Positions 1,391 to 33,762 of a stretch of 64,000 bases of DNA are shown here, piece after piece. The stretch lies in NCBI RefSeq assembly GCF_988242995.1, contig NZ_OZ547043.1. One strand, 5' to 3'. Each line of letters starts with the position of its first letter. Position 1 is the stretch's first letter. The position numbers and the translations under genes are program-made. A model generated the notes under the pieces. That model saw nothing but the letters and a program-made list of their open reading frames with translations, had not been told where the DNA came from and made no database searches.

Positions 1391-1416
1391 AAACCCACTT
1401 CGCGGTGGGTTTTTTG
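1391..1416 (+). terminator. Terminator-like hairpin plus T-tract about 20 nt upstream of the tape measure start
   Basis: aacccac-ttcgcg-gtgggtt stem-loop followed by TTTTTTG; an AGGAG ribosome-binding site follows before the ATG at 1436. Confidence 0.35.
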
Positions 1417-1435
1417 TTGTCAGGAGTTTTAATAA

Positions 1436-4669: not shown

Positions 4670-5000
4670 TACGGAAGAATTTCACTGGTTACCAGAGGAT
4701 GGAATGAAAACAGAAAATAAACCATCGATAAAAACTGTAAGATTTGGCGATGGTTATGAGCAACGAAGTCCAAATGGACTTAATCATTCTCTGCGCGTTT
4801 TCACCTGTGATTTCAAAGTTGAGGCGAATGAACGTGATTCATTTGAAAAATTTTTAGCCCGGCATGAAGGCTATAAATCTTTTTTTTGGCGCCCGCCGGG
4901 TATTAACAGAAAAATCAGAGTGGTGTGTCGAACGTGGTCAGCGACAGAACATATCACCTATACCGATTTTTCGTGTCAGTTTGACGAAGTGGTGATCTGA
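4662..5000 (+). CDS. Minor tail protein M
   Basis: 112 aa; [10 protein letters not shown]...KSFFWRPP motifs resemble lambda gpM as I recall it; overlaps the H stop. Confidence 0.85.
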
Positions 5001-5698: not shown

Positions 5699-5702
5699 TC
5701 CC

Positions 5703-6446: not shown

Positions 6447-6985
6447 AAACGGGGGCTGAAGCCATCCGGGCGCTGGCCACACAGCTCCCGGCGTTTCGTC
6501 AGAAACTGAGCGACGGCTGGTATCAGGTACGGATTGCCGGGCGTGATACAGGTGAAACGGAATTATCAGCCCGTCTTAATGAACCGCTGGCAAATGGTGC
6601 TGTGATCCATATCGTGCCGCGTCTGGCAGGAGCCAAAAGTGGCGGTGTGTTTCAGGCTGTGCTGGGGGCGGCTGTTATGGCGGTTGCTATATGGATGCCG
6701 GGGGTAGGAATTATGGCGAGTAATCTGCTGTTTTCTCTCGGTGCCAGTATGACGCTTGGCGGTGTTGCACAGATGCTGGCCCCTAAACCCAAAACCCCCC
6801 GCACACAGACAACGGATAACGGCAAACAGAACACCTATTTTTCTTCACTGGATAATATGGTTGCCCAGGGCAATGTTCTGCCCGTTCTGTACGGTGAAAT
6901 GCGCGTGGGATCACGTGTGGTATCTCAGGAGATCAGCACAGCAGATGAAGGTGATGGTGGTCAGGTTGTGGTGATTGGTCGCTGA
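6344..6985 (+). CDS. Tail assembly protein I
   Basis: 213 aa starting MAATHTLPLASPGMARICLYGDLQRFGRR, lambda gpI-like; overlaps the end of K as in lambda. Confidence 0.85.
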   Translation: MAATHTLPLASPGMARICLYGDLQRFGRRIDLRVKTGAEAIRALATQLPAFRQKLSDGWYQVRIAGRDTGETELSARLNEPLANGAVIHIVPRLAGAKSGGVFQAVLGAAVMAVAIWMPGVGIMASNLLFSLGASMTLGGVAQMLAPKPKTPRTQTTDNGKQNTYFSSLDNMVAQGNVLPVLYGEMRVGSRVVSQEISTADEGDGGQVVVIGR

Positions 6986-7004
6986 TGAAAAACGTTTTAT
7001 GTGA

Positions 7005-7030
7005 AACCGCCTCCGGGCGGTTTTATCGTT
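7005..7030 (+). terminator. Terminator-like hairpin between I and J
   Basis: aaccgcc-tccg-ggcggtt stem-loop followed by a T-rich run, 16-40 nt upstream of the J start. Confidence 0.3.
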
Positions 7031-7045
7031 TATGGAGCATGACGA

Positions 7046-10000
7046 ATGGGTAAAGGCAGCAGTAAGGGGCATACCCCGCGCGAAGCGAAGGACAACCTGA
7101 AGTCCACGCAGCTGCTGAGTGTGATCGATGCCATCAGCGAAGGGCCGGTTGAAGGTCCGGTGGATGGATTAAAAAGCGTGCTGCTGAACAGTACGCCGGT
7201 GCTGGACAGTGAGGGGAATACCAATATATCCGGCGTCACGGTGGTGTTCCGGGCCGGTGAGCAGGAGCAGACTCCGCCGGAGGGATTTGAATCCTCCGGT
7301 TCCGAGACGGTGCTGGGTACGGAAGTGAAATATGACACGCCGATCACCCGCACCATCACGTCGGCAAACATCGACCGTCTGCGCTTTACCTTCGGTGTGC
7401 AGGCACTGGTGGAAACCACCTCAAAGGGGGACAGGAATCCATCGGAAGTCCGCCTGCTGGTTCAGATACAACGTAACGGTGGCTGGGTGACGGAAAAAGA
7501 CATCACCATTAAGGGTAAAACCACCTCGCAGTATCTGGCCTCAGTGGTGGTGGATAACCTGCCGCCGCGCCCGTTTAATATCCGGATGCGCAGGATGACG
7601 CCGGACAGCACCACAGACCAGCTGCAGAACAAAACGCTCTGGTCGTCATACACCGAAATCATCGATGTGAAACAGTGCTACCCGAACACGGCACTGGTCG
7701 GCGTGCAGGTGGACTCGGAGCAGTTCGGCAGCCAGCAGGTGAGCCGTAATTATCATCTGCGCGGGCGTATTCTGCAGGTGCCGTCGAACTATAACCCGCA
7801 GACGCGGCAATACAGCGGTATCTGGGACGGGACGTTTAAACCGGCATACAGCAACAACATGGCCTGGTGTCTGTGGGATATGCTGACCCATCCGCGCTAC
7901 GGCATGGGGAAGCGTCTCGGTGCGGCGGATGTGGACAAATGGGCGCTGTATGTCATCGGCCAGAATTGCGACCAGTCGGTGCCGGATGGCTTTGGTGGCA
8001 CGGAGCCTCGCATCACCTGTAATGCCTGGCTGACCACGCAGCGCAAGGCGTGGGATGTGCTCAGTGATTTCTGCTCGGCGATGCGCTGTATGCCGGTATG
8101 GAACGGGCAGACGCTGACGTTCGTGCAGGACCGGCCATCGGATAAGGTGTGGACCTATAACCGCAGTAATGTGGTGATGCCGGATGATGGCGCGCCGTTC
8201 CGCTACAGCTTCAGCGCCCTGAAGGACCGTCATAATGCCGTTGAGGTGAACTGGATTGACCCGAATAACGGCTGGGAGACGGCGACAGAGCTTGTGGAGG
8301 ACACGCAGGCCATTGCCCGTTACGGTCGTAACGTCACGAAGATGGATGCCTTTGGCTGTACCAGCCGGGGGCAGGCACACCGCGCCGGGCTGTGGCTGAT
8401 TAAAACAGAACTGCTGGAAACGCAGACCGTGGATTTCAGCGTCGGCGCAGAAGGGCTTCGCCATGTACCGGGTGATGTTATTGAAATCTGCGATGATGAC
8501 TATGCGGGGATCAGCATTGGCGGGCGCGTGCTGGCGGTGAACAGCCAGACCCGGACGCTGACGCTCGACCGTGAAATCACGCTGCCATCCTCCGGTACCA
8601 CGCTGATAAGCCTGGTTGACGGGCAGGGGAGTCCGGTCAGCGTGGAGGTTCAGTCCGTCACCGACGGCGTGAAGGTGAAAGTGAGTCGGGTTCCTGACGG
8701 CGTTGCCGGATACAGCGTGTGGGGGCTGAAGCTGCCGACGCTGCGCCAGCGCCTGTTCCGCTGTGTGAGTATCCGTGAGAACGATGACGGCACGTATGCC
8801 ATCACTGCCGTGCAGCATGTACCGGAAAAAGAAGCCATCGTGGATAACGGGGCGCACTTTGACGGCGACCAGAGCGGCACGGTGAATGGTGTCACGCCGC
8901 CAGCGGTGCAGCACCTGACCGCCGAAGTCACCGCAGACAGCGGGGAATACCAGGTGCTGGCGCGCTGGGATACGCCGAAGGTGGTGAAGGGCGTGAGCTT
9001 TATGCTTCGCCTGACCGTGGCAGCGGATGACGGCAGTGAGCGGCTGGTCAGCACGGCCCGGACGACGGAAACCACATACCGCTTCAGGCAGCTGGCTCTG
9101 GGAAATTACAGTCTGACAGTCCGGGCGGTAAATGCGTGGGGGCAGCAGGGCGATCCGGCGTCGGTATCGTTCCGGATTGCCGCACCGGCAGCGCCATCGC
9201 GGATTGAGCTGACGCCGGGCTATTTTCAGATAACCGCCACGCCGCATCTTGCGGTTTATGATCCGACGGTACAGTTTGAGTTCTGGTTCTCGGAAAATCG
9301 GATTGCGGATATCAGGCAGGTTGAAACCAGCGCGCGTTATCTTGGCACGGCGCTGTACTGGATAGCCGCCAGTATCAATATCAAACCGGGCCATGATTAT
9401 TATTTTTACGTTCGCAGTGTGAACACCGTCGGCAAATCGACATTCGTGGAGGCTGTCGGTCGGGCGAGCGATGATGCGGAAGGTTACCTGGATTTTTTCA
9501 AAGGCAAGATAACCGAATCTCATCTCGGCAAGGAGTTGCTGGAAAAAGTCGACCTGACGGAGGATAACGCCAGCAGACTGGATGAGTTTTCGAAAGAGTG
9601 GAAGGATGCCAACGATAAATGGAATGCCATGTGGGCTGTCAAAATTGAGCAGACCAAAGACGGCAAACATTATGTCGCGGGTATTGGCCTCAGCATGGAG
9701 GATACAGAGGAAGGCAAACTGAGTCAGTTTCTGGTTGCCGCCAATCGTATCGCGTTTATTGACCCGGCAAACGGGAATGAAACGCCGATGTTTGTGGCGC
9801 AGGGCAATCAGATATTCATGAACGAAGTGTTCCTGAAATATCTGACGGCTCCCACCATTACCAGCGGCGGTAATCCTCCGGCATTTTCCCTGACACCGGA
9901 CGGGCGGCTGACGGCGAAAAATGCCGATATCAGCGGTAACGTGAATGCGAACTCCGGGACGCTCAACAACGTCACGATTAACGAGAACTGCCGGGTTCTG

Positions 10001-10441
10001 GGAAAACTGTCCGCGAACCAGATTGAAGGCGATCTCGTTAAAACAGTGGGCAAAGCTTTCCCCCGTGACTCCCGGGCACCGGAGCGGTGGCCATCAGGGA
10101 CCATTACCGTCAGGGTTTATGACGATCAGCCGTTTGACCGGCAAATTGTTATTCCGGCGGTGGCATTCAGTGGCGCTAAGCATGAGAGAGAGCATACTGA
10201 TATTTACTCCTCATGCCGTCTGATAGTGCGGAAAAACGGTGCTGAAATTTATAACCGTACCGCGCTGGATAATACGCTGATTTACAGTGGCGTTATTGAT
10301 ATGCCTGCCGGTCACGGTCACATGACACTGGAGTTTTCGGTGTCAGCATGGCTGGTAAATGGCTGGTATCCCACAGCAAGTATCAGCGATTTGCTGGTTG
10401 TTGTGATGAAGAAAGCCACTGCAGGCATCACGATTAGCTGA
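7046..10441 (+). CDS. Host specificity protein J (central tail fibre / tip attachment protein)
   Basis: 1131-aa ORF; N-terminus [34 protein letters not shown] and most of the length are lambda J-like from memory; the last ~150 aa diverge. Confidence 0.9.
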
Positions 10442-10460
10442 ATTTTATAACCCAGATACG

Positions 10461-10487
10461 GGCACCAGAAATGGTGCCTTTTTTATT
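10461..10487 (+). terminator. Intrinsic terminator downstream of J
   Basis: ggcacc-agaaat-ggtgcc hairpin followed by TTTTTTATT. Confidence 0.6.
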
Positions 10488-10508
10488 GCAGAAAAGCGAG
10501 AGGTAATT

Positions 10509-11108
10509 ATGCGTAAATTATGTGCTGTTATTCTGTCCGCAGTAGTCTGGCTGGTTGCCGCTGGTACGCCAGCGAGCGCAGCAGAGCATCAGTCCACACT
10601 AAGCGCCGGGTATCTTCAGACCCATACTGATATGCCAGGCAGTGATGACCTGAAGGGCATTAACGTGAAATACCGTTATGAATTTACGGACATGCTGGGG
10701 CTGGTGACGTCATTCAGTTATGCCAATGCCAAAGATGAGCAAAGAACGCATTACAGCGATACCCGCTGGCATGAAGATTCAGTGCGTAACCGCTGGTTCA
10801 GCATGATGGCGGGGCCATCTGTACGCGTGAATGAATGGTTCAGTGCTTATGCGATGGCAGGTGTGGCTTACAGCCGTGTTTCGACGTTCTCCGGGGATTA
10901 TCTCCGCGTAACTGACAACAAGGGGAAAACGCACGATGTGCTGACCGGAAGTGATGACGATCGCCACAGCAACACGTCTCTGGCGTGGGGAGCTGGCGTG
11001 CAGTTTAACCCGACCGAATCCGTGGCCATTGATATTGCTTATGAAGGCTCCGGCAGTGGCGACTGGCGCACTGACGGTTTCATCGTGGGTGTCGGTTATA
11101 AGTTCTGA
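10509..11108 (+). CDS. lom: Lom-like outer membrane beta-barrel protein (Ail/Lom/PagC family)
   Basis: 199 aa with a signal peptide and a C-terminal aromatic residue (…VGVGYKF); lambda lom position between J and stf; bracketed by terminator hairpins. Confidence 0.8.
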   Translation: MRKLCAVILSAVVWLVAAGTPASAAEHQSTLSAGYLQTHTDMPGSDDLKGINVKYRYEFTDMLGLVTSFSYANAKDEQRTHYSDTRWHEDSVRNRWFSMMAGPSVRVNEWFSAYAMAGVAYSRVSTFSGDYLRVTDNKGKTHDVLTGSDDDRHSNTSLAWGAGVQFNPTESVAIDIAYEGSGSGDWRTDGFIVGVGYKF

Positions 11109-11134
11109 TTAGCCAGGTAACACAGTGTTATGAC

Positions 11135-11162
11135 AGCCCGCCGGTTCAGGCGGGCTTTTTTG
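11135..11162 (+). terminator. Intrinsic terminator downstream of lom
   Basis: agcccgcc-ggttcag-gcgggct hairpin followed by TTTTTTG. Confidence 0.6.
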
Positions 11163-11166
11163 TGGA

Positions 11167-13530
11167 GTGGATATGGCAGCAGTAAAAATCTCAGGTGTGC
11201 TGAAAGATGGTGCGGGAAAACCAATACAGAACTGCACTATTCAACTGAAGGCAAAGCGTAACAGCACCACGGTACTGGTGAACACGGTGGCCTCTGAAAA
11301 TCCGGATGAAGCCGGGCGTTACAGCATGGATGTTGAGTATGGTCAGTACAGCGTCACCCTGCTGGTTGAAGGTTTTCCGCCTTCACATGCCGGGACCATT
11401 ACCGTCTATGAAGGTTCCAGACCAGGTACGCTGAATGATTTTCTCGGTGCCATGACGGAAGATGATGTCATGCCGGAGGCATTGCGTCGTTTTGAGGCAA
11501 TGGTGGAAGAAGCGGCACGCAACGCCGAAGCCGCCTCTCAGAGCGCAGCAGCGGCAAAGAAATCCGAAACTGCAGCGGCATCATCGAAGAACGCGGCGAA
11601 AACCTCAGAAACAAATGCAGCTAACAGCGCACAGGCGGCAGCGTCCTCGCAGACTGCATCGGCAAACTCCGCGACAGCAGCCAAAAAATCAGAAACCAAC
11701 GCGAAAAATAGCGAGACAGCCGCAAAGACGAGCGAAACCAACGCAAAGTCCAGCCAGACGGCAGCGAAAACAAGCGAAACGAATGCCAAAGCCAGTGAAA
11801 CTGCGGCAAAAAACAGCCAGGTTGCAGCAGCCCAAAGCGAGAGCGCGGCAGCCGGTTCTGCGACTTCAGCAGCTGGATCAGCAACTGCTGCGGCTAACAG
11901 CCAGAAAGCTGCGAAGACGAGTGAAACTAACGCAAAGTCCAGCCAGACGGCAGCGAAGACCAGCGAAACGAATGCCAAAGCCAGCGAAACTGCGGCGAAA
12001 AACAGTCAGGATGCAGCAGCCCAAAGCGAGAGTGCTGCAGCTGGTTCTGCCACTGCATCAGCCAACAGTCAAAAAGCAGCAAAAACCAGTGAAACCAATG
12101 CAAAGACAAGCGAGACTGCAGCGGCGAACTCGGCGAAAGCATCCGCTGCAAGCCAGACCGCTGCAAAAGCAAGTGAAGACGCAGCCAGAGAGTATGCAAG
12201 CCAGGCAGCAGATCCGTATAAATATGTCTTACAGCCGCTGCCTGATGTGTGGATACCGTTTAACGATTCACTGGATATGATTACGGGCTTTTCGCCATCA
12301 TATAAAAAGATTGTTATTGGTGACGACGAAATAACGATGCCTGGCGACAAGATTGTTAAGTTTAAACGTGCATCGAAAGCAACCTATATTAACAAATCTG
12401 GTGTGTTGACAGAGGCTGCCATTGATGAGCCACGATTTGAACGTGATGGCCTGCTTATTGAGGGGCAAAGAACTAATCTTCTGCTTAATTCAACAAATCC
12501 ATCTAAATGGAATAAGTCAGGCAATCTGGAACTCACAGAAATATCCACGGATTCTTTTAATTTTACTTATGGGAGATTTACTGTAAAAGATACTCTTATT
12601 GGTCAGACAAGTGCTATTAATATCGTAACGATTTCTGGCAGTAAAGGGTTTGATGTCACAGGTGATGAAAAATATGTGACCATTTCATGCCGTGTAAGAA
12701 GTGATGTTGAAAATATAAGGTGTCGTTTAAGATTTGAACACCATGATGGTTATACTTACACTTTTTTGGGAGATGCTTACCTCAATTTATCAACACTTGT
12801 AATTGATAAAACTGGTACTGCTGCAGACCGTATTATTGCAAAGGCTGTAAAAGATGAGGTTACTGGTTGGATTTTCTATCAGGCTACAATTAATGCACTA
12901 GATACAGAGAGCATGATTGGTGCGATGGTTCAATACGCTCCTGTAAAAGGTTCAGGTACAGCATCTGGAGACTATCTGGATATCGCAACTCCACAAGTGG
13001 AAGGTGGATCAAGTGCTTCGTCATTTATTGTAACTGATATAACTGCAAGCACTCGCGCAAGCGATATGGTGACAGTCCCAATCAAGAATAACCTTTATAA
13101 TCTTCCTTTTACGGTTCTTTGTGAGGTACATAAGAACTGGTATAAAACGCCAAATGCAGCACCGCGTGTTTTTGATACCGGCGGTCATCAAACCGGAGCG
13201 GCTATTATTCTTGGCTTCGGTCGTTCAACAGATTACGACGGATTTCCTTATTGTGATATAGGTTTGGCTAACAGACGGGTAAACGAAAACGCATCGCTTG
13301 AAAAAATGGTTATGGGGATGCGTGTAAAGTCAGATCAGTCTACGTGCTCAGTAAGTAACGGGCGTATATCCAGCGAAAAGAAAGCCACATGGTCCTATAT
13401 TCAGAACTCCGCAATTATCCGTATTGGAGGCCAGACTACAGCCGGGTTGCGTCATTTATTTGGTCATGTCAGGAATTTCAGAATATGGCACAAGGCATTG
13501 ACTGATGCTCAGATGGGGGAGTCAATCTAA
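11167..13530 (+). CDS. stf: Side tail fibre protein (Stf-like) with a replaced C-terminal receptor-binding region
   Basis: 787 aa; N-terminal region with Ala/Ser/Thr-rich KTSETNAK-type repeats typical of Stf; the C-terminal ~400 aa are markedly AT-richer by eye and end in a motif (GHVRNFRIWHKALTDAQM) reminiscent of ConA/LamG-like lectin folds. Confidence 0.8.
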   Translation: MDMAAVKISGVLKDGAGKPIQNCTIQLKAKRNSTTVLVNTVASENPDEAGRYSMDVEYGQYSVTLLVEGFPPSHAGTITVYEGSRPGTLNDFLGAMTEDDVMPEALRRFEAMVEEAARNAEAASQSAAAAKKSETAAASSKNAAKTSETNAANSAQAAASSQTASANSATAAKKSETNAKNSETAAKTSETNAKSSQTAAKTSETNAKASETAAKNSQVAAAQSESAAAGSATSAAGSATAAANSQKAAKTSETNAKSSQTAAKTSETNAKASETAAKNSQDAAAQSESAAAGSATASANSQKAAKTSETNAKTSETAAANSAKASAASQTAAKASEDAAREYASQAADPYKYVLQPLPDVWIPFNDSLDMITGFSPSYKKIVIGDDEITMPGDKIVKFKRASKATYINKSGVLTEAAIDEPRFERDGLLIEGQRTNLLLNSTNPSKWNKSGNLELTEISTDSFNFTYGRFTVKDTLIGQTSAINIVTISGSKGFDVTGDEKYVTISCRVRSDVENIRCRLRFEHHDGYTYTFLGDAYLNLSTLVIDKTGTAADRIIAKAVKDEVTGWIFYQATINALDTESMIGAMVQYAPVKGSGTASGDYLDIATPQVEGGSSASSFIVTDITASTRASDMVTVPIKNNLYNLPFTVLCEVHKNWYKTPNAAPRVFDTGGHQTGAAIILGFGRSTDYDGFPYCDIGLANRRVNENASLEKMVMGMRVKSDQSTCSVSNGRISSEKKATWSYIQNSAIIRIGGQTTAGLRHLFGHVRNFRIWHKALTDAQMGESI

Positions 13531-13811
13531 TGAAAGATTTAACACTCAAATTTGCAGACAGGGCCGACTTTTCGGCCTTTATGGATAGCATTGGCTATTA
13601 TGATGACGAGTCGATGCAGGATGATATTCTTATTGACGTGATAGGTAACGTGTACAAAGAAACCGGAGAACTGACTGAAGATGGCGAACCGGTATGTGTT
13701 AAGGAAGACGGATATTTTGTAAACGTGCGCATCATTAATGATGCAAAAAAATCGTCAATATTCGATGAATACGCGGTTGTAGTTGAACATCAACTTCGTG
13801 GCTGGATGTGA
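13530..13811 (+). CDS. Hypothetical acidic 93-aa protein; possible tail-fibre chaperone
   Basis: ATG overlaps the stf stop (TAATG), suggesting translational coupling; no family recognised. Confidence 0.4.
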   Translation: MKDLTLKFADRADFSAFMDSIGYYDDESMQDDILIDVIGNVYKETGELTEDGEPVCVKEDGYFVNVRIINDAKKSSIFDEYAVVVEHQLRGWM

Positions 13812-13820
13812 GGGAGACAA

Positions 13821-14525
13821 ATGGCTACATCGACAGTAATTCCAGGAGACATCACCACGTTAAAGGGAGATGTCAGTAAAGCCAAGGAAGATATTTCCTC
13901 AATTAACGGAAAAGTATCAACGCTTCAGGCTGATATGACCAGTGCAAAGCAGGATATCAGCACCAGATACACAAAAACTGAAGTTGATAATAAGCTGAAA
14001 AACAAACTGGAAGTGAACGCTCTGGAAAGCGGTCGTTATGGTGGAGATTTTTACCCGTTGACTGGCCGTGAAGCGTTTTATTTGTGGGGATTGGGCACGA
14101 CTACAGCGGCGGCAAACCTTTATCTTAATCCTGACCCCGCAATTTCGTCTGTGCTGCGGTCAACATCGTCTATCCGCTATAAACATTCAGTAGAGACAAT
14201 AGATTCAGAGCACGCCGAACTCATTTTCAGGATGCGCCCTGTGTGGTACAGGTCACAATGCGAAAATGACAGGCGTGACTGGGGATTCTACGGATTGATT
14301 GCCGAGGAAGTAGGAGAAATTGCCCCTCAGTTTGTACACTGGCGACCAGCTAACGAAGATGATGCACCGGAAGCTATTTCCAGCAATGGCCTTGTTGCCG
14401 AAGGTGTAATGTACGAACGTCTGGTTGTTCCACTGATTCACCATATCCAGAAGCTGACTGAAAGAGTTGATGAACTTGAGTCAGAATTAAAGTTGTTATC
14501 CGTTTCCCGAAGCGATATCGGATAA
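13821..14525 (+). CDS. Short fibre-like protein: N-terminal coiled coil plus C-terminal intramolecular-chaperone (peptidase S74-like) domain
   Basis: 234 aa; heptad-repeat N-terminus; C-terminal region (RPVWYRSQ...WGFYGLIAEEVGEIAPQFV...MYERLVVPLIHHIQKLTERVDELESEL) matches, from memory, the self-cleaving chaperone domain of endosialidase and T5 L-shaped tail fibres. Confidence 0.5.
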   Translation: MATSTVIPGDITTLKGDVSKAKEDISSINGKVSTLQADMTSAKQDISTRYTKTEVDNKLKNKLEVNALESGRYGGDFYPLTGREAFYLWGLGTTTAAANLYLNPDPAISSVLRSTSSIRYKHSVETIDSEHAELIFRMRPVWYRSQCENDRRDWGFYGLIAEEVGEIAPQFVHWRPANEDDAPEAISSNGLVAEGVMYERLVVPLIHHIQKLTERVDELESELKLLSVSRSDIG

Positions 14526-14535
14526 AGGAGGAGTA

Positions 14536-14829
14536 ATGGATATAACACCTTTCCTTCATGCGCTTTGTGCTGTGGCTGCGCAGCTACTGATTGGTCTTTT
14601 TACCGGGAACTGGGCTTACGGGGCGATAGCCGGTTGTACGTTCTTCATTGCGCGTGAACACACCCAGGCAGAATATCGCTGGATCGAAATGTTCGGGCAT
14701 GGCAAGCGAATGAATATGCCGTGGTGGGGCGGTTTTGATCCGCGCGCGTGGGATGTGGCAAGCCTGATGGATTTTGCTGTGCCGGTGGTGGCGTGTCTGC
14801 TGGTCTGGCTGTTGGTTAATCGTGGGTGA
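14536..14829 (+). CDS. Hypothetical small membrane protein
   Basis: 97 aa with two to three hydrophobic segments; GC-rich coding sequence; function unknown. Confidence 0.35.
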   Translation: MDITPFLHALCAVAAQLLIGLFTGNWAYGAIAGCTFFIAREHTQAEYRWIEMFGHGKRMNMPWWGGFDPRAWDVASLMDFAVPVVACLLVWLLVNRG

Positions 14830-14839
14830 AAAAAGGTGA

Positions 14840-14968
14840 GCTGTATATGCAACGGAGGAAGAAACCCCGTTGCTGGAAGCCTGGAAAAAGTATCGGATGC
14901 TGCTGAACCGTGTTGATACATCAACTGCACCTGATATTGAGTGGCCTACGAACCCTGTCAGGGAGTAA
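14840..14968 (+). pseudogene. tfa: 3' remnant of a tail fibre assembly gene (tfa), lacking start and N-terminal part
   Basis: Frame-2 translation gives ...[36 protein letters not shown], which matches the conserved C-terminus of lambda/P2-type Tfa proteins as I recall it; an in-frame stop lies immediately upstream (14837-14839). Confidence 0.55.
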
Positions 14969-15180
14969 TCATTGGGATTATGCCGCAGAAACGTTGTATG
15001 CAATAACGTTCTGCGGTTGGCTGATGCACTTTCGAGAGTGCATGTATTGAATTATTTCCAGCTATTATCGATTTTACGTATTTTTTGCATGAGAGAATTT
15101 GTACCTCCTCCCAACAACGACCTTCCATGACTTTCCGGACTTCTGTGGGCCAGCGGACGATGCTGCCCTCGGATGTTGTG

Positions 15181-16038
15181 CTAATTGGGTGATGACAAAT
15201 CCTGTGTATGGGTGTTTCCCTTTGTGCGTGCGTTGATGCTGGTAACGGTGAACGTCATGATGAACACAACCGCGAATAAGACGACAATCGTCGGAGCTGG
15301 TGCACTGTCGATAAAAAAGGACAACCAGACACCAGTCATTGACACTATTACCGATATGCCAATCGCCAGTAGGAGCGCAATATGAAAGCGTTGTGTCAGG
15401 AGTACCGCAATGGCGCCAGGCGCAATGAGCAGAGAAATGGAGAGAATGATACCTACCGCTTTCAGCGTCGCCACAATGGTCAGAGAGACCATGCACAGCA
15501 GCCCATAATGCAGACATCTCGTATGCAAACCGCTTACCTGCGCCTGTTGATAATCAAAGCTGAACAGCAAAAAATCCCGCCATTTTACGCTAATAACAAG
15601 TGTAACCAGCCCGGCAATAATCACCGTCTGGATTATATCGCCGATGGTTACCCCGAGCATGTCGCCGAAAAGAATATGGTCAAGATGTACGTCTGGTTTG
15701 ACTGCAATATACAAGATCAGACCTGCGGCAAACATGCCAGAAAAAACAATCCCCATCACTGTATCTTGCTTGATTCGGCTGTTGTCTTTCAGGTATCCCG
15801 TCGCCACCGCGCAGAATACTCCGGCGACGAATGCCCCTGTAGCCAGAGGTAACCCCAGAATCCAGGCAAGCACGATGCCAGGAAAAACCGCATGACTCAT
15901 CGCGTCACCCATCAGTGCCCAACCTTTCAGGACCAGAAAGACCGACAGCAGCGCACAGGGTATGGAAACTACCAGTGAAATCAGCAGTGCGTGACTCATA
16001 AAGGTGAACTGCAGTGGCTCCAGTAATAATGCCATCAT
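15181..16038 (-). CDS. sitD: Mn/Fe ABC transporter permease SitD
   Basis: 285-aa polytopic membrane protein of the ABC-3 (ZnuB/MntB) type; last gene of a four-gene operon with overlapping stop/start codons. Confidence 0.8.
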   Translation of the reverse strand: MMALLLEPLQFTFMSHALLISLVVSIPCALLSVFLVLKGWALMGDAMSHAVFPGIVLAWILGLPLATGAFVAGVFCAVATGYLKDNSRIKQDTVMGIVFSGMFAAGLILYIAVKPDVHLDHILFGDMLGVTIGDIIQTVIIAGLVTLVISVKWRDFLLFSFDYQQAQVSGLHTRCLHYGLLCMVSLTIVATLKAVGIILSISLLIAPGAIAVLLTQRFHIALLLAIGISVIVSMTGVWLSFFIDSAPAPTIVVLFAVVFIMTFTVTSINARTKGNTHTQDLSSPN

Positions 16039-16892
16039 GAGCGATCCTCCAGCGCTTTATGCGCACGCCGACGATTTGCCAAAAGCCCATGGGTGGGCGC
16101 AAATACAAATGCTAAAAGAAACAGCAGTGTCTGCGCCACCACGATGATTCCACCTGTCGCGCCGTCCAGAAAGTAACTGACCCACGCGCCGAGGAAACTG
16201 GTTACACTGCCAATAGTTACAGCAATTATGAGCAGGCGGGGAAAACGATCGGTTAACAACCATGCTGTTGCACCGGGAGTCACCACCAGACAGATCACCA
16301 GAAAGGCACCAACCGTTTGCAGCGCCGCAACGGTCGAAACCGACAGCAGGGTGAAGAAGAGGATTTTTAATCTGCCCGGATGCAATCCAATAGCACGAGC
16401 GTGATTCTCGTCGAAAAAGGTCACCATAAGATCTTTCCATTTGAAAAAAAGCACGATGATCGAGAGAATGCCAATGATAGTGAGTTGCAGGATATCCGCC
16501 GGATCGATTGCCAGAATATTGCCCAGGACGATGGTCTGAATGTTCACGGATGTCGGGTTCAATGACACCATAAACAGCCCCAGGCCAAAAAAGGAGGAGA
16601 AGATCAGGCCGATGATGGCATCTTCTTTTAAGCGAGTGCGTTGGTTAAGAAACAGCATGCTGCCCGCTGCCAGTCCGCCGGAAAAGAAGGCTCCCAGAGA
16701 AAACGGAAGCCCCAGCATATATGCCCCCGCAACACCCGGGACAATAGAGTGCGACAGCGCATCGCCAATCAGCGACCAGCCTTTTAGCATCAGATAGCAT
16801 GACAGGAAAGCGCAGAGACCGCCGACCATCGCCGAGACCCACATCGCATTGAGCATATATTCATAGCTGAAGGGTTCCAGTAGCACGTTCAT
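16035..16892 (-). CDS. sitC: Mn/Fe ABC transporter permease SitC
   Basis: 285-aa polytopic membrane protein; overlaps sitB and sitD by 4 nt each. Confidence 0.8.
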
Positions 16893-17716
16893 CTTGCTTC
16901 CCCCTGCACCGCTGACGGTCGATGTGCCACAAAAGGGTGTTCATCGTCAGTAATAATGCTTTCTTCCGAGCCGTTAAGTGTGACATGGCGCAGTACGCCG
17001 CTAAAAGCCAGCTCCAGGTTCTCGGCTGTAAAAGTGGTGTCTGTCGGCCCGCTTGCCAGGACGGTGCCTTTGACCATGACCGTATAATCGCAAAATGTCG
17101 TGACTGAGCCGAGATTGTGCGTTGAGACAAGCATCGTCTTGCCTTCCGCGCGTAACTCCCTCAACAGGCTGATGATTTTCGCTTCGGTTTTCACATCAAC
17201 GCCCGTAAAAGGTTCATCCAGCAGGATCACATCACCCTGCTGTGCAATCGCTCTCGCCAGAAAGACGCGTTTCTTTTGTCCACCGGAAAGCTCGCCGATT
17301 TGTCGATGGCGAAAATCCACCATATCGACACGTTCCAGCGCATCGGTGACAATCTGACGATCCCTCTTTTTGGCTATACGCAACATACCCATGTGCCCAT
17401 AGCGGCCCATCATCACCACATCTTCCACTAGTACAGGAAATGACCAGTCAACCTCTTCTGACTGAGGGACGTAGGCAACCAGGTTTTTCTGTAGCGCCTG
17501 TCGCGTGGGAATACCCAGAACAGATATCTTTCCGCTGGTCAGACGCACAAATCCCATAATCGCTTTAAACAACGTCGATTTTCCGGAACCGTTTACCCCA
17601 ACCAGAGCGGCAATAGATCCACTTGGTACTGTGAAGGATGCATCGCGCAGTGCTGTGTGCCCGTTACGCCAGGTGACAGTAACATCATTAACGACAATGC
17701 CCGCAGATTGCATCAT
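16889..17716 (-). CDS. sitB: Mn/Fe ABC transporter ATP-binding protein SitB
   Basis: Walker [10 protein letters not shown], signature LSGGQKKR, Walker B ILLDEP. Confidence 0.85.
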
Positions 17717-19791: not shown

Positions 19792-20910
19792 TTAGAACTG
19801 ATAAACCAGACCTAAAGCGACAATATCATCGGTAGAGATGCCGTTGGCAGCGTAGAAGCTGTCATCTTCATCCAACAGGTTGATTTTATAGTCAACATAA
19901 GTGGACATGTTTTTATTGAAATAGTAAGTCGCGCCAACATCGGCGTATTTAACCAGATCTTTATCACCGTCGGTACCGACCAAATCCTTGCCTTTAGACA
20001 TCAGGAAAGAGACTGCCGGACGCAGCCCAAAATCGAACTGATACTGCGCAGTAACTTCAAAGTTCTGGGTTTTGTTGGCAATCGTATTTGTTGAATCACC
20101 GTAAGGTGTCATGTTACGCGTTTCAGAATACATGGTCGCCAGGTAGATATTGTTAGCATCGTATTTTGCCCCGGCAGTCCAGGCATCTGCCTTATCGCCT
20201 TTTGCGGTAGAGAATTCAGCCTGCTGGTTAGTGCGATCGGAACTGGTATAGGCGGCACCAAAACTCATGCCCATACCTAAGTCGTAGGTAGTAGAGATGC
20301 CAAGACCGTCGCCATTGGCGTTCTTAATGTTTCGATCACCACCGTTTGCGGTACCTTCTTGCTCATGGGTGACCTGGTTTTCATTCGCACCCTGGTACTG
20401 TAACGCAAAATTCAGACCATCAACCAGACCGAAGAAATCAGTATTACGATAGGTTGCTACGCCATTGGCTCGACCGGTCATATAGTTATCGGCTTTGGTA
20501 TAAGAGTCACCACCGAATTCCGGTAGCATATCGGTCCAGCCTTCGATGTCGTACATTACGCCATAATTACGACCATAGTCGAATGAACCCAGGTCACCAA
20601 ATTTCAGACCGGCAAAAGCAAGACGAGTCCAGGAATCACCTTTATCACCTTCAGAGCCATTAGCCTGCACGTTATATTCCCACTGGCCATACCCAACCAG
20701 TTGATCCGTGATTTGCGTTTCACCCTTAAAACCAAAACGCACATAAGTTTGATCACCATCACTATTGGTATTATCAGAAAAATAATGCAGGCCATCAACT
20801 TTGCCATACAGATCTAATTTGTTGCCGTCTTTATTATAAACTTCGGCTGCATGTGCAGCACCTGCGGCGAGCAGGGCAGGAATTAAAAGTGCCAGTACTT
20901 TGCTTTTCAT
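19792..20910 (-). CDS. ompN: Outer membrane porin OmpN (OmpC/OmpF family)
   Basis: 372 aa; signal peptide [21 protein letters not shown], porin-like body, C-terminal ...GLVYQF. Confidence 0.8.
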
Positions 20911-21138
20911 TGAATAAATCCTTTAGTTATTTTATTTGCCTTTTCATCCCCATTTTGGGGAGTGAAAGCATCCTAAAGGAGAAGTTCAGTTAGCCGATAA
21001 ATATCATTTGTTACGCCTTAAGTAAAACCTTAATCAAATAATTCTTCTGAAATGATAATAAGTCTGGTGAATGTATTGAAGATAATACATACAAAATAAA
21101 AATTATACTTTTAATTTGCTATACGTTATTCTGCGCGG

Positions 21139-21248
21139 GTTATATGCCTTTATTGTCACAGATTTTATTTTCTGTTGGGCCATTGCGTTGCTACTGATTT
21201 TCCAACAAATAATGAGACAAGCCCGAACAGTCGTTCGGGCTTTTTTTT
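21139..21248 (+). ncRNA. micC: MicC small regulatory RNA
   Basis: Starts GTTATATGCCTTTATTGTCACAGATTTTATTTTCTGTTGGGCCATTGC and ends in a GCCCGAAC-AGTC-GTTCGGGC hairpin plus T8; matches the MicC sequence I recall and its known location between ompN and ydbK. Confidence 0.8.
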
Positions 21249-21276
21249 AGAATTGGATAATCCTTATCCAGTGCAT

Positions 21277-24200
21277 TTAATCGGTGTTGCTTTTTTCCGC
21301 TTTTCCGGCCATTTGTGCCAGGAAGTCATAGCGTTTTTGCAAATCAGCTGCAGCATCTTTCCATAACTGTTCTGCCACTTCTGGCTGCTGCGAATTCAGA
21401 CGACGGAAACGCTGCTCGTGAAGTAACGTTTCTTCCAGTGCTTCTGACGGCGGGCGTGAATCCAGTGCCAGCGGCAGTTTGCCTTCATCGGCTCGACGTG
21501 GATCGAAGCGATATAGCGGCCAGAAGCCGGTGGCAGTGAGTTGGCGCATCTGGTCGTGGCTGAGTGCCAGATCGTAACCATGCTCTTCACACGGGCTATA
21601 AGCAATGATCAGCGATGGCCCCGGATACGCTTCCGCTTCCTGAATCGCTTTCACCGTCTGGTTCAGCTGCGCGCCGAGAGAAATCTGCGCCACATAAACA
21701 TGACCGTACATCATCATACTGACGCCAAGATCTTTACGCGCTTTACGTTTGCCGTGCTCGCCAAACTTAGTCACCGCGCCAAGCGGCGTGGCTTTTGACG
21801 CCTGACCACCGGTATTGGAATAGCATTGCGTATCCAGCACCAGAATGTTGACGTTTTCCGTCAAACTCAATACATGATCCAGACCGCCAAAGCCGATATC
21901 GTAAGCCCAGCCGTCGCCACCAATCAGCCAGATTGATTTTTCCACCAGTGCATCTGCGTCACGTAGCAGTTCATGTGCTTCGGCAACATCGTTGAGTTGC
22001 TGGCGTAAAGCTGCGACCTGTTCTCGACGAACCTCTGGCGTGGCGTCTGATTTCAACGCAGTCAGTAATTCCGCCGGGATTTTATCGGCAAATTGATCCA
22101 GCAGACGCAGCACGCGGACACGGTGTTGATCGACCGTCAGGCGGAAACCAAGGCCAAATTCGGCATTATCTTCAAATAGAGAGTTCGCCCATGCCGGCCC
22201 GCGACCGTTGGTATCGGTGGTATACGGTGTAGAGGGCAGGTTACCGCCATAAATTGAAGAACAGCCGGTGGCGTTAGCGATCAACATCCGGTCGCCATAG
22301 AGCTGAGTCAGCAATTTAATATACGGCGTCTCGCCACAACCGGAGCAAGCACCGGAATATTCAAACAGCGGTGTAATCAGCTGCGATGTACGAATATCAA
22401 TACGCTCCAGTTTGCTACGGTCGATTTCTGGCAGGTTGAGGAAGAAATCGTAATTGATTTTCTCTTCTTCGACATGTTCCAGCCGCGACATCATATTGAT
22501 GGCTTTAATCTCTGGATTCTGACGGTCTTTCGCCGGGCAAACTTCGACGCACAGGTTACAACCGGTGCAATCTTCCGGAGCCACCTGCAAGACATATTTC
22601 TGCCCGCGCATATCACGCGATTTCACATCCAGCGAATGCAGGCTGGCAGGGGCGTTTTCCATCGCTTCAGGCGGCACCACTTTTGCGCGAATAGCTGAGT
22701 GTGGGCAAGCGGCGACGCAGTGGTTACATTGGGTACAGAGTTCCTCTTTCCAGATGGGGATCTCTTCGGCGATATTGCGTTTTTCCCAGCGCGTGGTGCC
22801 CATCGGCCAGGTGCCGTCTGGCGGCAGCGCCGAAACGGGGAGGGCATCACCAAGCCCGGCGAGCATCGCCGCGGTTACGGTTTTCACGAAATCAGGGGCG
22901 GCATCGGAAACCACTGGCGGTCGATTGGCGCTGTGCGGATTAACCGGCTGCAGCGGAACTTCTTCTACGGATTCACGTGCCAGCGCCAGAGCCTGCCAGT
23001 TGCGTTCCACCAGATCCTGACCTTTGCTACTGTAACTTTTGGCAATCGCACCCTGCAATTCTGCGAGGGCGCTATCGCCAGGCAGAATTTGCGTAAGATG
23101 GAAAAAAGCCATCTGCATGACGGTATTAATACGGGCCGCCAGGCCACATTCGCGGGCGATTTTCGCCGCGTTAATCACATAGAAGCGCGCTTTTTTCTGG
23201 TTTAACACGGCCTGAACTTCTTGCGGCAAGCGCGACCACACTTCATCTGCGCTGTACGGCGTGTTGAGCAGGAAAATGCCGCAAGGTTTTAAACGCTCAG
23301 CCATCTGATATTTATCGATAAACTGCAACTGGTGGCAGCCAACAAAATCAGCCTGGGAAATGAGATAAGCGGAACGAATCGGCTGTTCGCTCACGCGAAG
23401 GTGAGAAACCGTCAGGCCGCCCGCCTTTTTGGAGTCGTAAACAAAATAGCCCTGTGCGTACCACGGCGTGGAATTACCGATAATCTTGATATTGTTTTTG
23501 GTCGCGGAAACGCTGCCATCGCTACCAAGGCCATAAAACAAGGCTTCAAGTTTCGCCGAGTTTGGCAGGGTGTTTTCCGGCAACGGCAGTGACAGATTGG
23601 TCACATCATCGTAAATACCAACCGTAAAGCGCGCTTTCGGTTTAGCCGCGTTGAGCTCGGCAAATACCGCCAGTACACAGTCCGGGCCAAATTCTTTGGA
23701 TGAAAGACCATAGCGCCCACCAATGACACGGGGCAGGGTTTCGCGCTCGCCATTATTAAAGGCTTCTGCCAGTGCGGTCATCACATCCAGATAGAGCGGT
23801 TCAGCCTGGGCACCGGGTTCTTTGGTTCTGTCCAGTACCGCCACGCTGCGTACGGATCCCGGCAGAGCTTGTAGCAAGTGTTTGGCGGAGAAGGGACGGT
23901 ACAGGCGAACTTTCAGCACGCCGACTTTTTCGCCACGGGTTAGCAATTCATCAACCACTTCTTCACAGGTGCCAATGGCAGAGCCCATCAGGATAATCAC
24001 CCGTTCCGCTTGCGGATGCCCGTAATACTCAAACGGCTGATACTGACGACCTGTCGCGGCAGAGAAATCATTCATCGCCTGTTCAACATGGTCGTAAACT
24101 GCGTTGTACCACGGGTTGGTGGCTTCACGTGACTGGAAATAGGTGTCCGGGTTAGCCGAGGTACCACGAATCACCGGATGCTCCGGATTCAGCGCGCGGG

Positions 24201-24801
24201 CGCGGTGGGCATCAATTTCGGCCTGCGGTATCAGTTCAAGAATCGTGTCATCGGCCAGCGGGACAATTTTATTGATTTCGTGGGACGTGCGGAAACCATC
24301 AAAGAAATGAATAAATGGCACGCGACTCTTCAGCGTCGCGATGTGCGAAATAAGAGCAAAGTCTTGCGCTTCCTGGACGTTTGCCGCACACAACATCGCG
24401 CAACCCGTCTGGCGCACCGCCATAACGTCGGAATGATCGCCAAAAATAGAGAGTGCATGTGTGGCAACGGTACGTGCCGCTACATGCAGGACAAATGGCG
24501 TCAGTTCGCCTGCCAGTTTGTACAGCGTCGGGATCATCAGCAGCAAACCCTGCGATGACGTAAACGATGTTGAAAGGGCACCCGTCTGCAAAGCGCCATG
24601 CACGGTAGCGATAGCCCCCGCTTCCGACTGCATTTCAACCACGCGTGGTGTGTCTCCCCAAACGTTCTTCAAGCCGTTTCCGGCCCATGCATCAGCCTGT
24701 TCTGCCATCGTGGAACTGGGGGTAATAGGGTAGATGGCGATAACTTCACTGGTGCGAAACGCCACCGAAGCAACCGCGCCATTACCGTCAATAGTAATCA
24801 T
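21277..24801 (-). CDS. ydbK: Pyruvate:flavodoxin/ferredoxin oxidoreductase
   Basis: 1174 aa; 4Fe-4S cysteine motifs (CTQCNHCVAACP, CTGCNLCVEVCP); TPP-binding region. Confidence 0.9.
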   Translation of the reverse strand: MITIDGNGAVASVAFRTSEVIAIYPITPSSTMAEQADAWAGNGLKNVWGDTPRVVEMQSEAGAIATVHGALQTGALSTSFTSSQGLLLMIPTLYKLAGELTPFVLHVAARTVATHALSIFGDHSDVMAVRQTGCAMLCAANVQEAQDFALISHIATLKSRVPFIHFFDGFRTSHEINKIVPLADDTILELIPQAEIDAHRARALNPEHPVIRGTSANPDTYFQSREATNPWYNAVYDHVEQAMNDFSAATGRQYQPFEYYGHPQAERVIILMGSAIGTCEEVVDELLTRGEKVGVLKVRLYRPFSAKHLLQALPGSVRSVAVLDRTKEPGAQAEPLYLDVMTALAEAFNNGERETLPRVIGGRYGLSSKEFGPDCVLAVFAELNAAKPKARFTVGIYDDVTNLSLPLPENTLPNSAKLEALFYGLGSDGSVSATKNNIKIIGNSTPWYAQGYFVYDSKKAGGLTVSHLRVSEQPIRSAYLISQADFVGCHQLQFIDKYQMAERLKPCGIFLLNTPYSADEVWSRLPQEVQAVLNQKKARFYVINAAKIARECGLAARINTVMQMAFFHLTQILPGDSALAELQGAIAKSYSSKGQDLVERNWQALALARESVEEVPLQPVNPHSANRPPVVSDAAPDFVKTVTAAMLAGLGDALPVSALPPDGTWPMGTTRWEKRNIAEEIPIWKEELCTQCNHCVAACPHSAIRAKVVPPEAMENAPASLHSLDVKSRDMRGQKYVLQVAPEDCTGCNLCVEVCPAKDRQNPEIKAINMMSRLEHVEEEKINYDFFLNLPEIDRSKLERIDIRTSQLITPLFEYSGACSGCGETPYIKLLTQLYGDRMLIANATGCSSIYGGNLPSTPYTTDTNGRGPAWANSLFEDNAEFGLGFRLTVDQHRVRVLRLLDQFADKIPAELLTALKSDATPEVRREQVAALRQQLNDVAEAHELLRDADALVEKSIWLIGGDGWAYDIGFGGLDHVLSLTENVNILVLDTQCYSNTGGQASKATPLGAVTKFGEHGKRKARKDLGVSMMMYGHVYVAQISLGAQLNQTVKAIQEAEAYPGPSLIIAYSPCEEHGYDLALSHDQMRQLTATGFWPLYRFDPRRADEGKLPLALDSRPPSEALEETLLHEQRFRRLNSQQPEVAEQLWKDAAADLQKRYDFLAQMAGKAEKSNTD

Positions 24802-33049: not shown

Positions 33050-33762
33050 AATAAATATCCTCCGGCATAGCCGGAGGTTTTTCAAATGCGCCTATAAGGC
33101 TCTCTTACCAGCCGCGCCCTAACAGGCGCACACGATCTGACATTTGCATCCAACTTCGTTACTTACGGCCCGTAAACGGGCTGCCCGGATAGGGAATCGA
33201 TAACTGCTCTCCCATTTTATCCTCTTCAAGCTGGTGCTTTATGTAATCCTGTATCTTCGCCGTGTTCTTACCCACTGTATCGACGTAGTACCCTCTGCAC
33301 CAGAACTCCCTGTTCCTGTATTTGAATTTCAAATCACCAAACTGCTCGTAAAGCATCAGACTGCTTTTCCCTTTCAGATATCCCATAAACCCGGATACGC
33401 TCATTTTGGGCGGGATCTCCACAAGCATATGGATATGATCTGCACAGCATTCAGCTTCCAGAATCCGTACGCTTTTCCACTCACACAGCTTTCTCAAAAT
33501 ACTGCCTATTGCTCTACGCTTCTCTCTGTAGAACACCTGTCTTCGGTATTTTGGCGCAAAAACTATGTGATATTTACAGTTCCATCGGGTGTGCGCTAAG
33601 CTCTTTTCGTTCCCCATTGGGACCCCCTTTTGATTTCTTGTTTGACACTTGCAGTTGCCAGACCGCAAAGTGTTTTAACAAATCAAAAGGGGTTTTAATA
33701 ACTGGCTCAAAGCTGAAAGCTTTCCGGAACCCCCAGCCTAGCTGGGGGTTTTCTGTGCACAA
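33050..33762 (-). mobile_element. IS200-type insertion sequence (IS200/IS605 family), copy A
   Basis: ~713-bp unit whose reverse complement matches 62558-63270 along its whole length by eye; encodes a 152-aa HuH Y1 transposase; sits between convergent feaB and tynA. Confidence 0.8.
33159..33617 (-). CDS. tnpA: IS200/IS605-family transposase TnpA (Y1 HuH)
   Basis: 152 aa from MGNEKSLAHTRWNCKYHIVFAPKYRRQVFY; the track ORF has an upstream extension. Confidence 0.85.
   Translation of the reverse strand: MGNEKSLAHTRWNCKYHIVFAPKYRRQVFYREKRRAIGSILRKLCEWKSVRILEAECCADHIHMLVEIPPKMSVSGFMGYLKGKSSLMLYEQFGDLKFKYRNREFWCRGYYVDTVGKNTAKIQDYIKHQLEEDKMGEQLSIPYPGSPFTGRK

What the first reader, a model, noticed from the sequence alone, without database searches (positions are those of the whole stretch)
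21139..21248. MicC sRNA present with sequence variation in its 3' half
The 5' seed region matches the MicC sequence I recall exactly, while the region before the terminator (…CCAACAAATAATGAGACAAGCCCGAAC…) differs at several positions from K-12. The ompC-targeting function is probably conserved, with strain-level variation in the Hfq-binding/terminator region.
Basis: partly seen in the sequence, partly recalled or inferred. Interest (0 to 1): 0.25.

Follow-up and report, generated by a model that had tools for sequence, protein, structure and literature searches.

The report
Ordinary MicC small RNA gene, minor allele
This is the well-known E. coli small RNA gene micC, which shuts down the outer-membrane porin OmpC; it is intact, sits in its usual place, and differs from the laboratory K-12 copy only by ordinary strain-level changes outside its target-binding end.

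Summary
Window 21139-21248 (+) is a full-length MicC sRNA gene. It scores 124.3 bits against Rfam RF00121 (gathering score 90), level with K-12 at 125. It lies in the canonical position, divergent from ompN and just downstream of ydbK/nifJ. RNA nt 1-48 and the 61 nt upstream are identical to K-12.

All differences are in the 3' half:
- Two substitutions in the loop of the central hairpin.
- Three substitutions in the linker before the terminator.
- One substitution in the terminator stem.
- A T-run of 8 instead of 9.

These sites also vary among other E. coli strains. The linker variant is exact in 593 of 5,411 complete genomes.

From about 20,880 onward the locus matches E. coli strain 7/2 at all but 2 of 4,159 nt. 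One of the two is the terminator change (C to T at 21235). It replaces the E. coli-typical A.C mismatch with the A-U pair seen in 26 of 30 aligned sequences. It is rare in E. coli, at most 9 of 5,412 genomes.

nt 1-16 are a perfect complement of the ompC leader, which is at least 99% conserved in 5,339 of 5,370 genomes. Nothing here is novel beyond a private allele.

The parts
21139..21248 (+). MicC sRNA gene (110 nt), from the transcription start as annotated in K-12 to the end of the T-run
   Evidence: Rfam RF00121 scores 124.3 bits against a gathering score of 90. The alignment to the annotated K-12 micC agrees.
21139..21160 (+). 5' target-pairing end (nt 1-22). nt 1-16 are a perfect complement of ompC leader positions -29 to -14
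   Evidence: Duplex with the K-12 ompC leader is -26.5 kcal/mol for nt 1-22. The 5' 40 nt score -32.0 against -18.4 +/- 2.9 for 500 shuffles, and none reaches it. The segment is unpaired in the MFE fold and identical to K-12.
21173..21207 (+). Central hairpin: stem UGUUGGG (21173-21179) with UCCAACA (21201-21207), and a 21-nt loop carrying the two loop substitutions (21187, 21192)
   Evidence: Rfam structure line. The stem is 88% paired across 30 sequences, with U-A/C-G covariation at its closing pair.
21208..21218 (+). A/U-rich single-stranded linker (AAUAAUGAGAC) carrying three substitutions relative to K-12 (21208, 21213, 21214)
   Evidence: Unpaired in the Rfam consensus. The window's version, within the 33-nt query 21202-21234, is exact in 593 of 5,411 complete E. 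coli genomes.
21219..21248 (+). Rho-independent terminator: perfect 10-bp stem, 4-nt loop (21219-21242) and an 8-T run (21241-21248). T at 21235 gives an A-U pair where most E. coli have an A.C mismatch
   Evidence: Terminator scan. Hairpin energy is -16.3 against -11.8 kcal/mol for K-12 and 7/2. The pair is A-U in 26 of 30 sequences.
21078..21138 (+). Promoter-proximal region of micC, 61 nt identical to K-12. It is part of the 228-nt ompN-micC intergenic region (20911-21138), which differs from K-12 by 4 substitutions and 1 indel
   Evidence: Pairwise alignment. In K-12 derivatives a 184-nt fragment of this intergenic region drives micC-lacZ (PMC5745476). The consensus scan found no sigma-70 match on the + strand.
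19792..20910 (-). Context: ompN, the divergently transcribed porin gene co-regulated with micC; here it is a rare 372-aa allele
   Evidence: 82% identity to K-12 OmpN. Synteny with K-12 and strain 7/2. Co-regulation is reported in PMC5745476.
21277..24801 (-). Context: ydbK/nifJ (pyruvate:flavodoxin oxidoreductase), convergent with micC; its stop codon lies 28 nt beyond the micC T-run
   Evidence: ORF list. Annotations of the homologous loci.

Best explanation
This is a functional micC gene of an E. coli strain. By analogy with K-12 it is transcribed from the ompN-micC intergenic promoter. That gives a roughly 110-nt Hfq-dependent sRNA whose unstructured 5' end pairs with the ompC mRNA leader just upstream of the ribosome-binding site and blocks OmpC synthesis.

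The differences from K-12 are neutral or nearly neutral population polymorphisms in the loop, the linker and the terminator. The allele is the 'strain 7/2' type plus one private C-to-T change. That change restores the A-U pair in the terminator stem that other Enterobacteriaceae have.

Shown here: identity, position, intact sequence elements, complementarity to the K-12 ompC leader, and the population distribution of the variants. Inferred: expression, Hfq dependence and OmpC repression in this particular strain.
For: Family and position:
- The Rfam MicC match is full length at 124.3 bits. K-12 scores 125, strain 7/2 scores 122.1 and Salmonella diarizonae scores 122.8.
- Synteny is canonical: ompN(-) / micC(+) / ydbK-nifJ(-), with 228 nt and 28 nt spacers, as in K-12 (PMC1489923).

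Intact elements:
- nt 1-48 and the 61 nt upstream are identical to K-12.
- nt 1-16 are perfectly complementary to the ompC leader, and the pairing is far better than shuffles.
- That leader is at least 99% identical in 5,339 of 5,370 E. coli genomes.
- The terminator has a 10-bp stem and 8 T.
- The variant sites map to unpaired Rfam columns, except nt 97, which improves pairing.

Population context:
- The same sites vary among other E. coli alleles.
- The linker variant is exact in 593 of 5,411 genomes.
- The window differs from strain 7/2 at only 2 of 4,159 nt across micC-nifJ.

Published function:
- MicC represses ompC in K-12 by more than 20-fold in a GFP fusion (PMC1807950).
- It also does so in the ExPEC strain UTI89 (bioRxiv 10.64898/2026.07.27.741068).
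Against: - Expression, Hfq binding and OmpC repression were not and cannot be tested here.
- The strain's own ompC leader is not in the window.
- The simple consensus scan found no sigma-70 promoter on the + strand. The same holds for K-12, whose sequence there is identical.
- The exact 110-nt allele was not found in 5,426 complete E. coli genomes (best match 99.4%). Its 47-nt 3' half was not found in GTDB species representatives. The single private base could therefore be a sequencing error.
Confidence: 0.95

Rival explanations
1. The allele is MicC, but its 3'-half changes alter function quantitatively. In particular, the stronger terminator hairpin (C to U at nt 97) with the shorter T-run could shift the termination position, the poly(U) tail length, Hfq binding or stability. 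This strain would then make more or less active MicC than typical E. coli.
For: - The predicted terminator hairpin is about 4.5 kcal/mol more stable than in K-12 or 7/2.
- For SgrS and RyhB, artificially stabilised terminator hairpins gave shortened poly(U) tails, loss of Hfq binding and loss of function. Moderate hairpin strength was proposed as a general feature of sRNA terminators (PMC5558911).
- The A.C mismatch is the overwhelming majority state in E. coli. At most 9 of 5,412 genomes have T in this context.
- Clinical isolates differ in micC expression although their promoters are identical (PMC7177473).
Against: - The perfectly paired stem is the normal state in every non-E. coli relative sampled: 26 of 30 aligned sequences have A-U.
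- Salmonella MicC is a functional Hfq-dependent sRNA (PMC3333887). The two Salmonella sequences sampled here (subsp. arizonae and diarizonae) carry that perfect stem and 7 T.
- The published destabilising effects came from inserting several G-C pairs, not from repairing one mismatch.
- 8 T still meets the published requirement of at least 7 T.
- The change occurs on at least two allelic backgrounds, which shows it is tolerated.
- One SNP in 110 nt, against a background of 2 in 4,159 nt, is not statistically remarkable.
Confidence: 0.1
2. The T at 21235 is a sequencing or assembly error, and the true allele is identical to that of strain 7/2 and about 90 other genomes.
For: - It is one of only two differences from strain 7/2 in 4,159 nt.
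- No complete E. coli genome has the exact 171-nt sequence.
- The 47-nt 3' half has no exact match among species representatives.
Against: - The site is not inside a homopolymer.
- The same base is found in five independent complete genomes on another micC background and in all outgroups, so it is biologically plausible.
- Read data are not available to me.
Confidence: 0.1
3. The locus is a decayed or non-functional micC remnant, or the match is a chance resemblance.
For: None beyond the lack of a consensus sigma-70 match. MicC can be lost: in E. coli EM18-18-42 the gene is cut by IS1.
Against: - The covariance-model match is full length at K-12 level.
- The promoter-proximal 61 nt and nt 1-48 are identical to the experimentally studied K-12 gene.
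- Both stems and the T-run are intact.
Confidence: 0.01

Closest known systems
E. coli K-12 MicC (micC, b4427; Rfam RF00121)
   Same: Same genomic position, orientation and neighbours. nt 1-48 and the 61 nt upstream are identical. The central stem and the terminator loop are the same, and the Rfam score is the same (124.3 against 125).
   Different: Six substitutions in the 3' half (nt 49, 54, 70, 75, 76, 97) and a T-run of 8 instead of 9. The terminator stem is perfectly paired instead of carrying an A.C mismatch.
micC allele of E. coli strain 7/2 (NZ_CP023820.1) and about 90 other complete genomes
   Same: Identical over the 171 nt compared except for one base. The whole micC-nifJ haplotype matches at 4,157 of 4,159 nt.
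   Different: T instead of C at window 21235 (nt 97). The neighbouring ompN is a different, rare allele, joined at a recombination breakpoint at 20769-20788.
Salmonella MicC
   Same: Same family and same 5' end (first 21 nt, although those loci were retrieved by that pattern). The two Salmonella sequences sampled (subsp. arizonae and diarizonae) have the perfectly paired terminator stem GCCCGAAC/GUUCGGGC, as the window does.
   Different: The central hairpin loop and the terminator loop differ, and the T-run is 7. In Salmonella the 5' end also targets the ompD coding sequence at codons 23-26 with RNase E (PMC3333887), a target not known in E. coli.
MicF (regulator of ompF, divergent from ompC)
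   Same: Same logic: an Hfq-dependent sRNA encoded divergently from one porin gene that represses another porin mRNA by pairing of its 5' end with the leader (PMC1807950, PMC5745476).
   Different: Unrelated sequence, a different Rfam family, a different target and a different locus.

Membership tests
MicC sRNA (Rfam RF00121) | Scores at or above the curated gathering threshold of the RF00121 covariance model over the full model | tested here: met
   124.3 bits against a gathering score of 90, E = 3e-19, model positions 1-123 of 123. K-12 scores 125 in the same test.
MicC sRNA (Rfam RF00121) | Genomic position between ompN (divergent) and ydbK/nifJ (convergent) | tested here: met
   ompN at 19792-20910 (-) and nifJ at 21277-24801 (-). 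K-12, strain 7/2 and JNEC-KY178 have the same arrangement. Spacers are 228 and 28 nt, against 227 and 28 nt in K-12.
MicC sRNA (Rfam RF00121) | 5' end complementary to the ompC mRNA leader upstream of the ribosome-binding site | tested here: met
   nt 1-16 pair perfectly with K-12 ompC -29 to -14, and nt 1-22 give -26.5 kcal/mol. None of 500 shuffles reaches the observed energy. The test used the K-12 leader, which is at least 99% conserved in 5,339 of 5,370 genomes. The strain's own ompC is not in the window.
MicC sRNA (Rfam RF00121) | Central hairpin and Rho-independent terminator with a run of at least 7 U | tested here: met
   The terminator has a 10-bp stem and 8 T. The helices are 88% and 98% paired across 30 sequences, and the window is paired at every position of both.
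MicC sRNA (Rfam RF00121) | Hfq-dependent accumulation and Hfq-dependent repression of OmpC | not testable with these tools
   This needs Northern blots, co-immunoprecipitation and reporter assays. It is reported for K-12 and UTI89 alleles (PMC1807950; bioRxiv 10.64898/2026.07.27.741068).
MicC sRNA (Rfam RF00121) | Transcription from the ompN-micC intergenic promoter | tested here: inconclusive
   The 61 nt before the start are identical to K-12, and the whole intergenic region differs by 4 substitutions and 1 indel. The consensus scan finds no sigma-70 match on the + strand. Expression itself was not tested.

The most novel reading that the evidence does not exclude
E. coli proper carries a lineage-specific A.C mismatch in the MicC terminator that its relatives lack. 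The window is one of the rare genomes (at most about 0.2%) in which the pair is restored. If terminator strength tunes the poly(U) tail and Hfq loading, as shown for SgrS and RyhB, this strain could make measurably different amounts of active MicC. That would change OmpC levels and outer-membrane permeability.
Probability: 0.08. Interest if true: 0.3.

Novelty: already known. Interest (0 to 1): 0.07.

Why it matters
It matters little. MicC is a textbook porin-regulating sRNA, and this copy is intact and in its normal place.

The modest value is descriptive:
- Within E. coli, micC variation is confined to the 3' half, while the target-binding end is invariant.
- The typical E. coli terminator carries a mismatch that other enterobacteria lack.
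- This strain repairs that mismatch with a single base change.

That could make a small natural test of the 'moderate terminator strength' idea for Hfq-binding sRNAs, but nothing here suggests a new mechanism.

Tried and rejected
- Full-length RNA-RNA duplex prediction produced an unrealistic end-to-end duplex, because it ignores intramolecular folding. I discarded it and used only the 5' 22-40 nt.
- MFE folds of the whole RNA differ between the window and K-12. Each MFE structure holds only 1-2% of the ensemble, so I drew no conclusion from the difference.
- The exact-match scan of species-representative genomes with the 47-nt 3' half found nothing.
- Looking for published micC sequence polymorphism gave nothing on the 3' half. 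I checked PMC7177473, PMC3318445 and the UTI89 preprint.
- The original MicC paper (Chen et al. 2004, PMC522180) is not held, so its facts are cited through PMC1489923 and PMC1807950.
- The promoter consensus scan found no + strand site, so I name no -10 or -35 element.
- I considered a pseudogene, a chance match, and the overlapping 63-aa ORF at 21175-21366 (+). I rejected all three. The ORF is a mechanical ORF overlapping a known sRNA and the antisense of nifJ.
- I did not run the metagenome scan for the exact allele. The answer would not change the verdict and did not justify the shared compute.
- Searches were input or script errors and gave no result.

Full report
**1. Observation**

The sequence at 21139-21248 (+) reads GTTATATGCCTTTATTGTCACAG...GCCCGAACAGTCGTTCGGGCTTTTTTTT. 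A scan of the whole window against Rfam gave a full-length MicC (RF00121) match at 21136-21256 (+). It scored 124.3 bits against a gathering score of 90, with E = 3e-19.

The annotated K-12 micC (NC_000913.3 1437121-1437231) starts at the same G. Alignment with it shows RNA nt 1-48 identical, with these differences (window base / K-12 base):
- 21187 G/A (nt 49)
- 21192 T/C (nt 54)
- 21208 A/T (nt 70)
- 21213-21214 TG/AA (nt 75-76)
- 21235 T/C (nt 97)
- 8 T instead of 9

Both the 'exact 5' end' and the 'several differences in the 3' half' are correct.

**2. Anatomy and surroundings**

The upstream neighbour on the minus strand is ompN (19792-20910). The downstream neighbour, also on the minus strand, is ydbK/nifJ (21277-24801). 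K-12, strain 7/2 and JNEC-KY178 have the same arrangement. The spacers are 228 nt and 28 nt, against 227 nt and 28 nt in K-12. PMC1489923 quotes these K-12 distances from the original description as 227 bp and 30 bp.

The ompN-micC intergenic region differs from K-12 by 4 substitutions and 1 indel. The 61 nt before the start are identical. A simple consensus scan finds no sigma-70 site on the + strand. It does find the terminator: a 10-bp stem with a 4-nt loop at 21219-21242, followed by the T-run.

On the Rfam structure line the differences map as follows:
- nt 49 and 54 lie in the loop of the central hairpin.
- nt 70, 75 and 76 lie in the unpaired linker.
- nt 97 lies in the 3' arm of the terminator stem.

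In the MFE fold the first 24 nt are unpaired.

**3. Comparative evidence**

micC is present in 5,412 of 5,426 complete E. coli genomes. For the 171-nt query, 93 genomes are at least 99% identical and none is exact. Another 4,451 are at 95-99%. A divergent allele class, the eco-241 type with a 5-nt deletion in the hairpin loop, accounts for 498 at 80-90%.

The best match, strain 7/2, differs only at 21235. The linker variant (...CCAACAAATAATGAG...) is exact in 593 of 5,411 genomes.

I sampled eleven E. coli alleles from different identity tiers. Apart from the eco-241 type, all variation lies at RNA position 41 or later. The variable sites are 49, 54, 67, 70, 72, 75, 76, 97 and 101, plus a T-run of 8-10. 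The window's variant sites are the usual polymorphic ones.

Rfam scores of the alleles are close:

| Allele | Bits |
|---|---|
| K-12 | 125 |
| Window | 124.3 |
| 7/2 | 122.1 |
| eco-241 | 105.7 |
| Salmonella diarizonae | 122.8 |
| E. whittamii | 119.4 |

**4. The terminator base**

A scan of species-representative genomes with the 5' 21 nt returned 30 loci. They come from Citrobacter, Salmonella arizonae and diarizonae, E. whittamii, cryptic Escherichia clades and others.

I aligned 30 distinct sequences: the window, five E. coli genome-collection alleles and 24 of the scan loci. The terminator pair at nt 87/97 is A-U in 26 of them. It is A.C only in four E. coli proper alleles: K-12, 7/2, eco-241 and MOD1-EC7003. 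The window therefore carries the family-consensus pair.

Within E. coli this is rare. At most 9 of 5,412 genomes match the 56-nt terminator and flank with T. The five I inspected carry it on a K-12-like micC body, so the change sits on at least two backgrounds. It makes the predicted hairpin 4.5 kcal/mol more stable, -16.3 against -11.8.

Sliding-window comparison shows the window to be 99.7-100% identical to strain 7/2 from about 20,880 onward. The direct count is 2 differences in 4,159 nt, at 21235 and 22405. The T is thus a private point change on the 7/2-type haplotype, or a sequencing error. It is not an old retained state.

**5. Mechanism**

*Shown here.* MicC nt 1-16 are a perfect complement of AAUAAAGGCAUAUAAC in the K-12 ompC leader (-29 to -14 from AUG). 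With further pairs, nt 1-22 give -26.5 kcal/mol. The 5' 40 nt give -32.0 kcal/mol against -18.4 +/- 2.9 for 500 shuffles, and none reaches it. That leader is at least 99% identical in 5,339 of 5,370 E. coli genomes.

*Established by others.*
- MicC forms an extended imperfect duplex with the ompC 5' UTR and represses an ompC::gfp fusion more than 20-fold (PMC1807950).
- It represses OmpC in the ExPEC strain UTI89 (bioRxiv 10.64898/2026.07.27.741068).
- micC and ompN are co-induced by beta-lactams and repressed by H-NS (PMC5745476).
- Salmonella MicC is an Hfq-dependent sRNA that also targets the ompD coding sequence (PMC3333887).

*Inferred.* This allele is expressed and acts in the same way in its strain.

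**6. Rival readings**

The only rival worth a test is a quantitative effect of the stronger terminator. Morita et al. (PMC5558911) showed that stabilising the SgrS and RyhB terminator hairpins shortens the poly(U) tail and abolishes Hfq binding. Against this:
- The perfect stem is the normal state in all other genera sampled.
- 8 T remain.
- The published effect needed several added G-C pairs.

I put this at about 0.1. A sequencing error at 21235 is also about 0.1. Neither changes the identification. A pseudogene or a chance match is excluded.

**7. Comparison with the known, and verdict**

Every sequence-testable defining feature of MicC is met. Hfq dependence and expression cannot be tested here. 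The feature is already known. The exact 110-nt allele was not found in the collections searched, but it differs by one base from an allele present in about 90 genomes. Interest is low.

**8. Provenance of the window**

The window is E. coli:
- 34-58 kb (tynA, the paa operon, ydbA) is 99.3% identical to several strains.
- 1-17 kb holds lambdoid prophage tail genes followed by sitABCD.
- The 10 kb around micC reaches only 97.5-98.4% identity, because of the rare ompN allele described under noticed in passing.

Noticed in passing
window 19792-20910 (-): The ompN next to micC is a rare, strongly divergent allele of 372 aa, against 377 aa in K-12. Protein identities are 82% to K-12 OmpN, 99.5% to E. 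coli JNEC-KY178, 95-96% to OmpN of E. whittamii and cryptic Escherichia clades, and 65.5% to K-12 OmpC. Only 36 of 5,409 complete E. coli genomes are at least 95% identical in DNA, and 5,358 are at 60-80%. NCBI's pipeline names it 'porin OmpC' in those genomes.
   Followed up: partly
window 20769-20788: There is a recombination breakpoint inside the 5' coding part of ompN. To its left the window matches the JNEC-KY178 haplotype at 98-100%. To its right it matches the strain 7/2 haplotype, with 2 differences in 4,159 nt. JNEC-KY178 itself carries the divergent eco-241-type micC, so this window combines a rare ompN with a different micC-nifJ haplotype.
   Followed up: yes
window 33050-33762 and 62558-63270: Two identical 713-nt IS200/IS605-family elements lie in inverted orientation, 28,795 nt apart. 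Each gave an Rfam STnc490 hit of 144.6 bits and carries a transposase ORF. The first sits between feaB and tynA, and the gene order there is collinear with other E. coli. Only one listed genome (NZ_LR778147.1) has the same insertion.
   Followed up: partly
window 1-17000: Lambdoid prophage tail genes (tape measure, gpJ, tail fibres) are followed by the sitABCD iron/manganese transporter and uspF. This occupies the position where K-12 has the Rac prophage remnant.
   Followed up: no
L047 (E. coli EM18-18-42, NZ_CP063473.1 2113240-2114117): In this strain micC is truncated by an IS1 insertion at about nt 58. Only the 3' part (TGATTTTCCAAC... to the terminator) remains, so the target-binding end is lost. 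This is a natural micC knockout.
   Followed up: partly
L003/L034 (E. coli eco-241, JNEC-KY178) micC: A second, deeply divergent micC allele class occurs in about 498 of 5,412 genomes. It has a 5-nt deletion and several changes in the central hairpin loop, changes at nt 23-26, and 8 differences in the 40 nt upstream of the start. Its Rfam score drops to 105.7 bits, but nt 1-22 are intact.
   Followed up: partly
window 21219-21248, minus strand: Read on the minus strand, the micC terminator hairpin lies 28 nt downstream of the nifJ stop and could serve as a bidirectional terminator. There the K-12 base gives a G.U wobble and the window gives an A-U pair. The scan did not call a minus-strand terminator, because no T-run follows. 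This is inference only.
   Followed up: no
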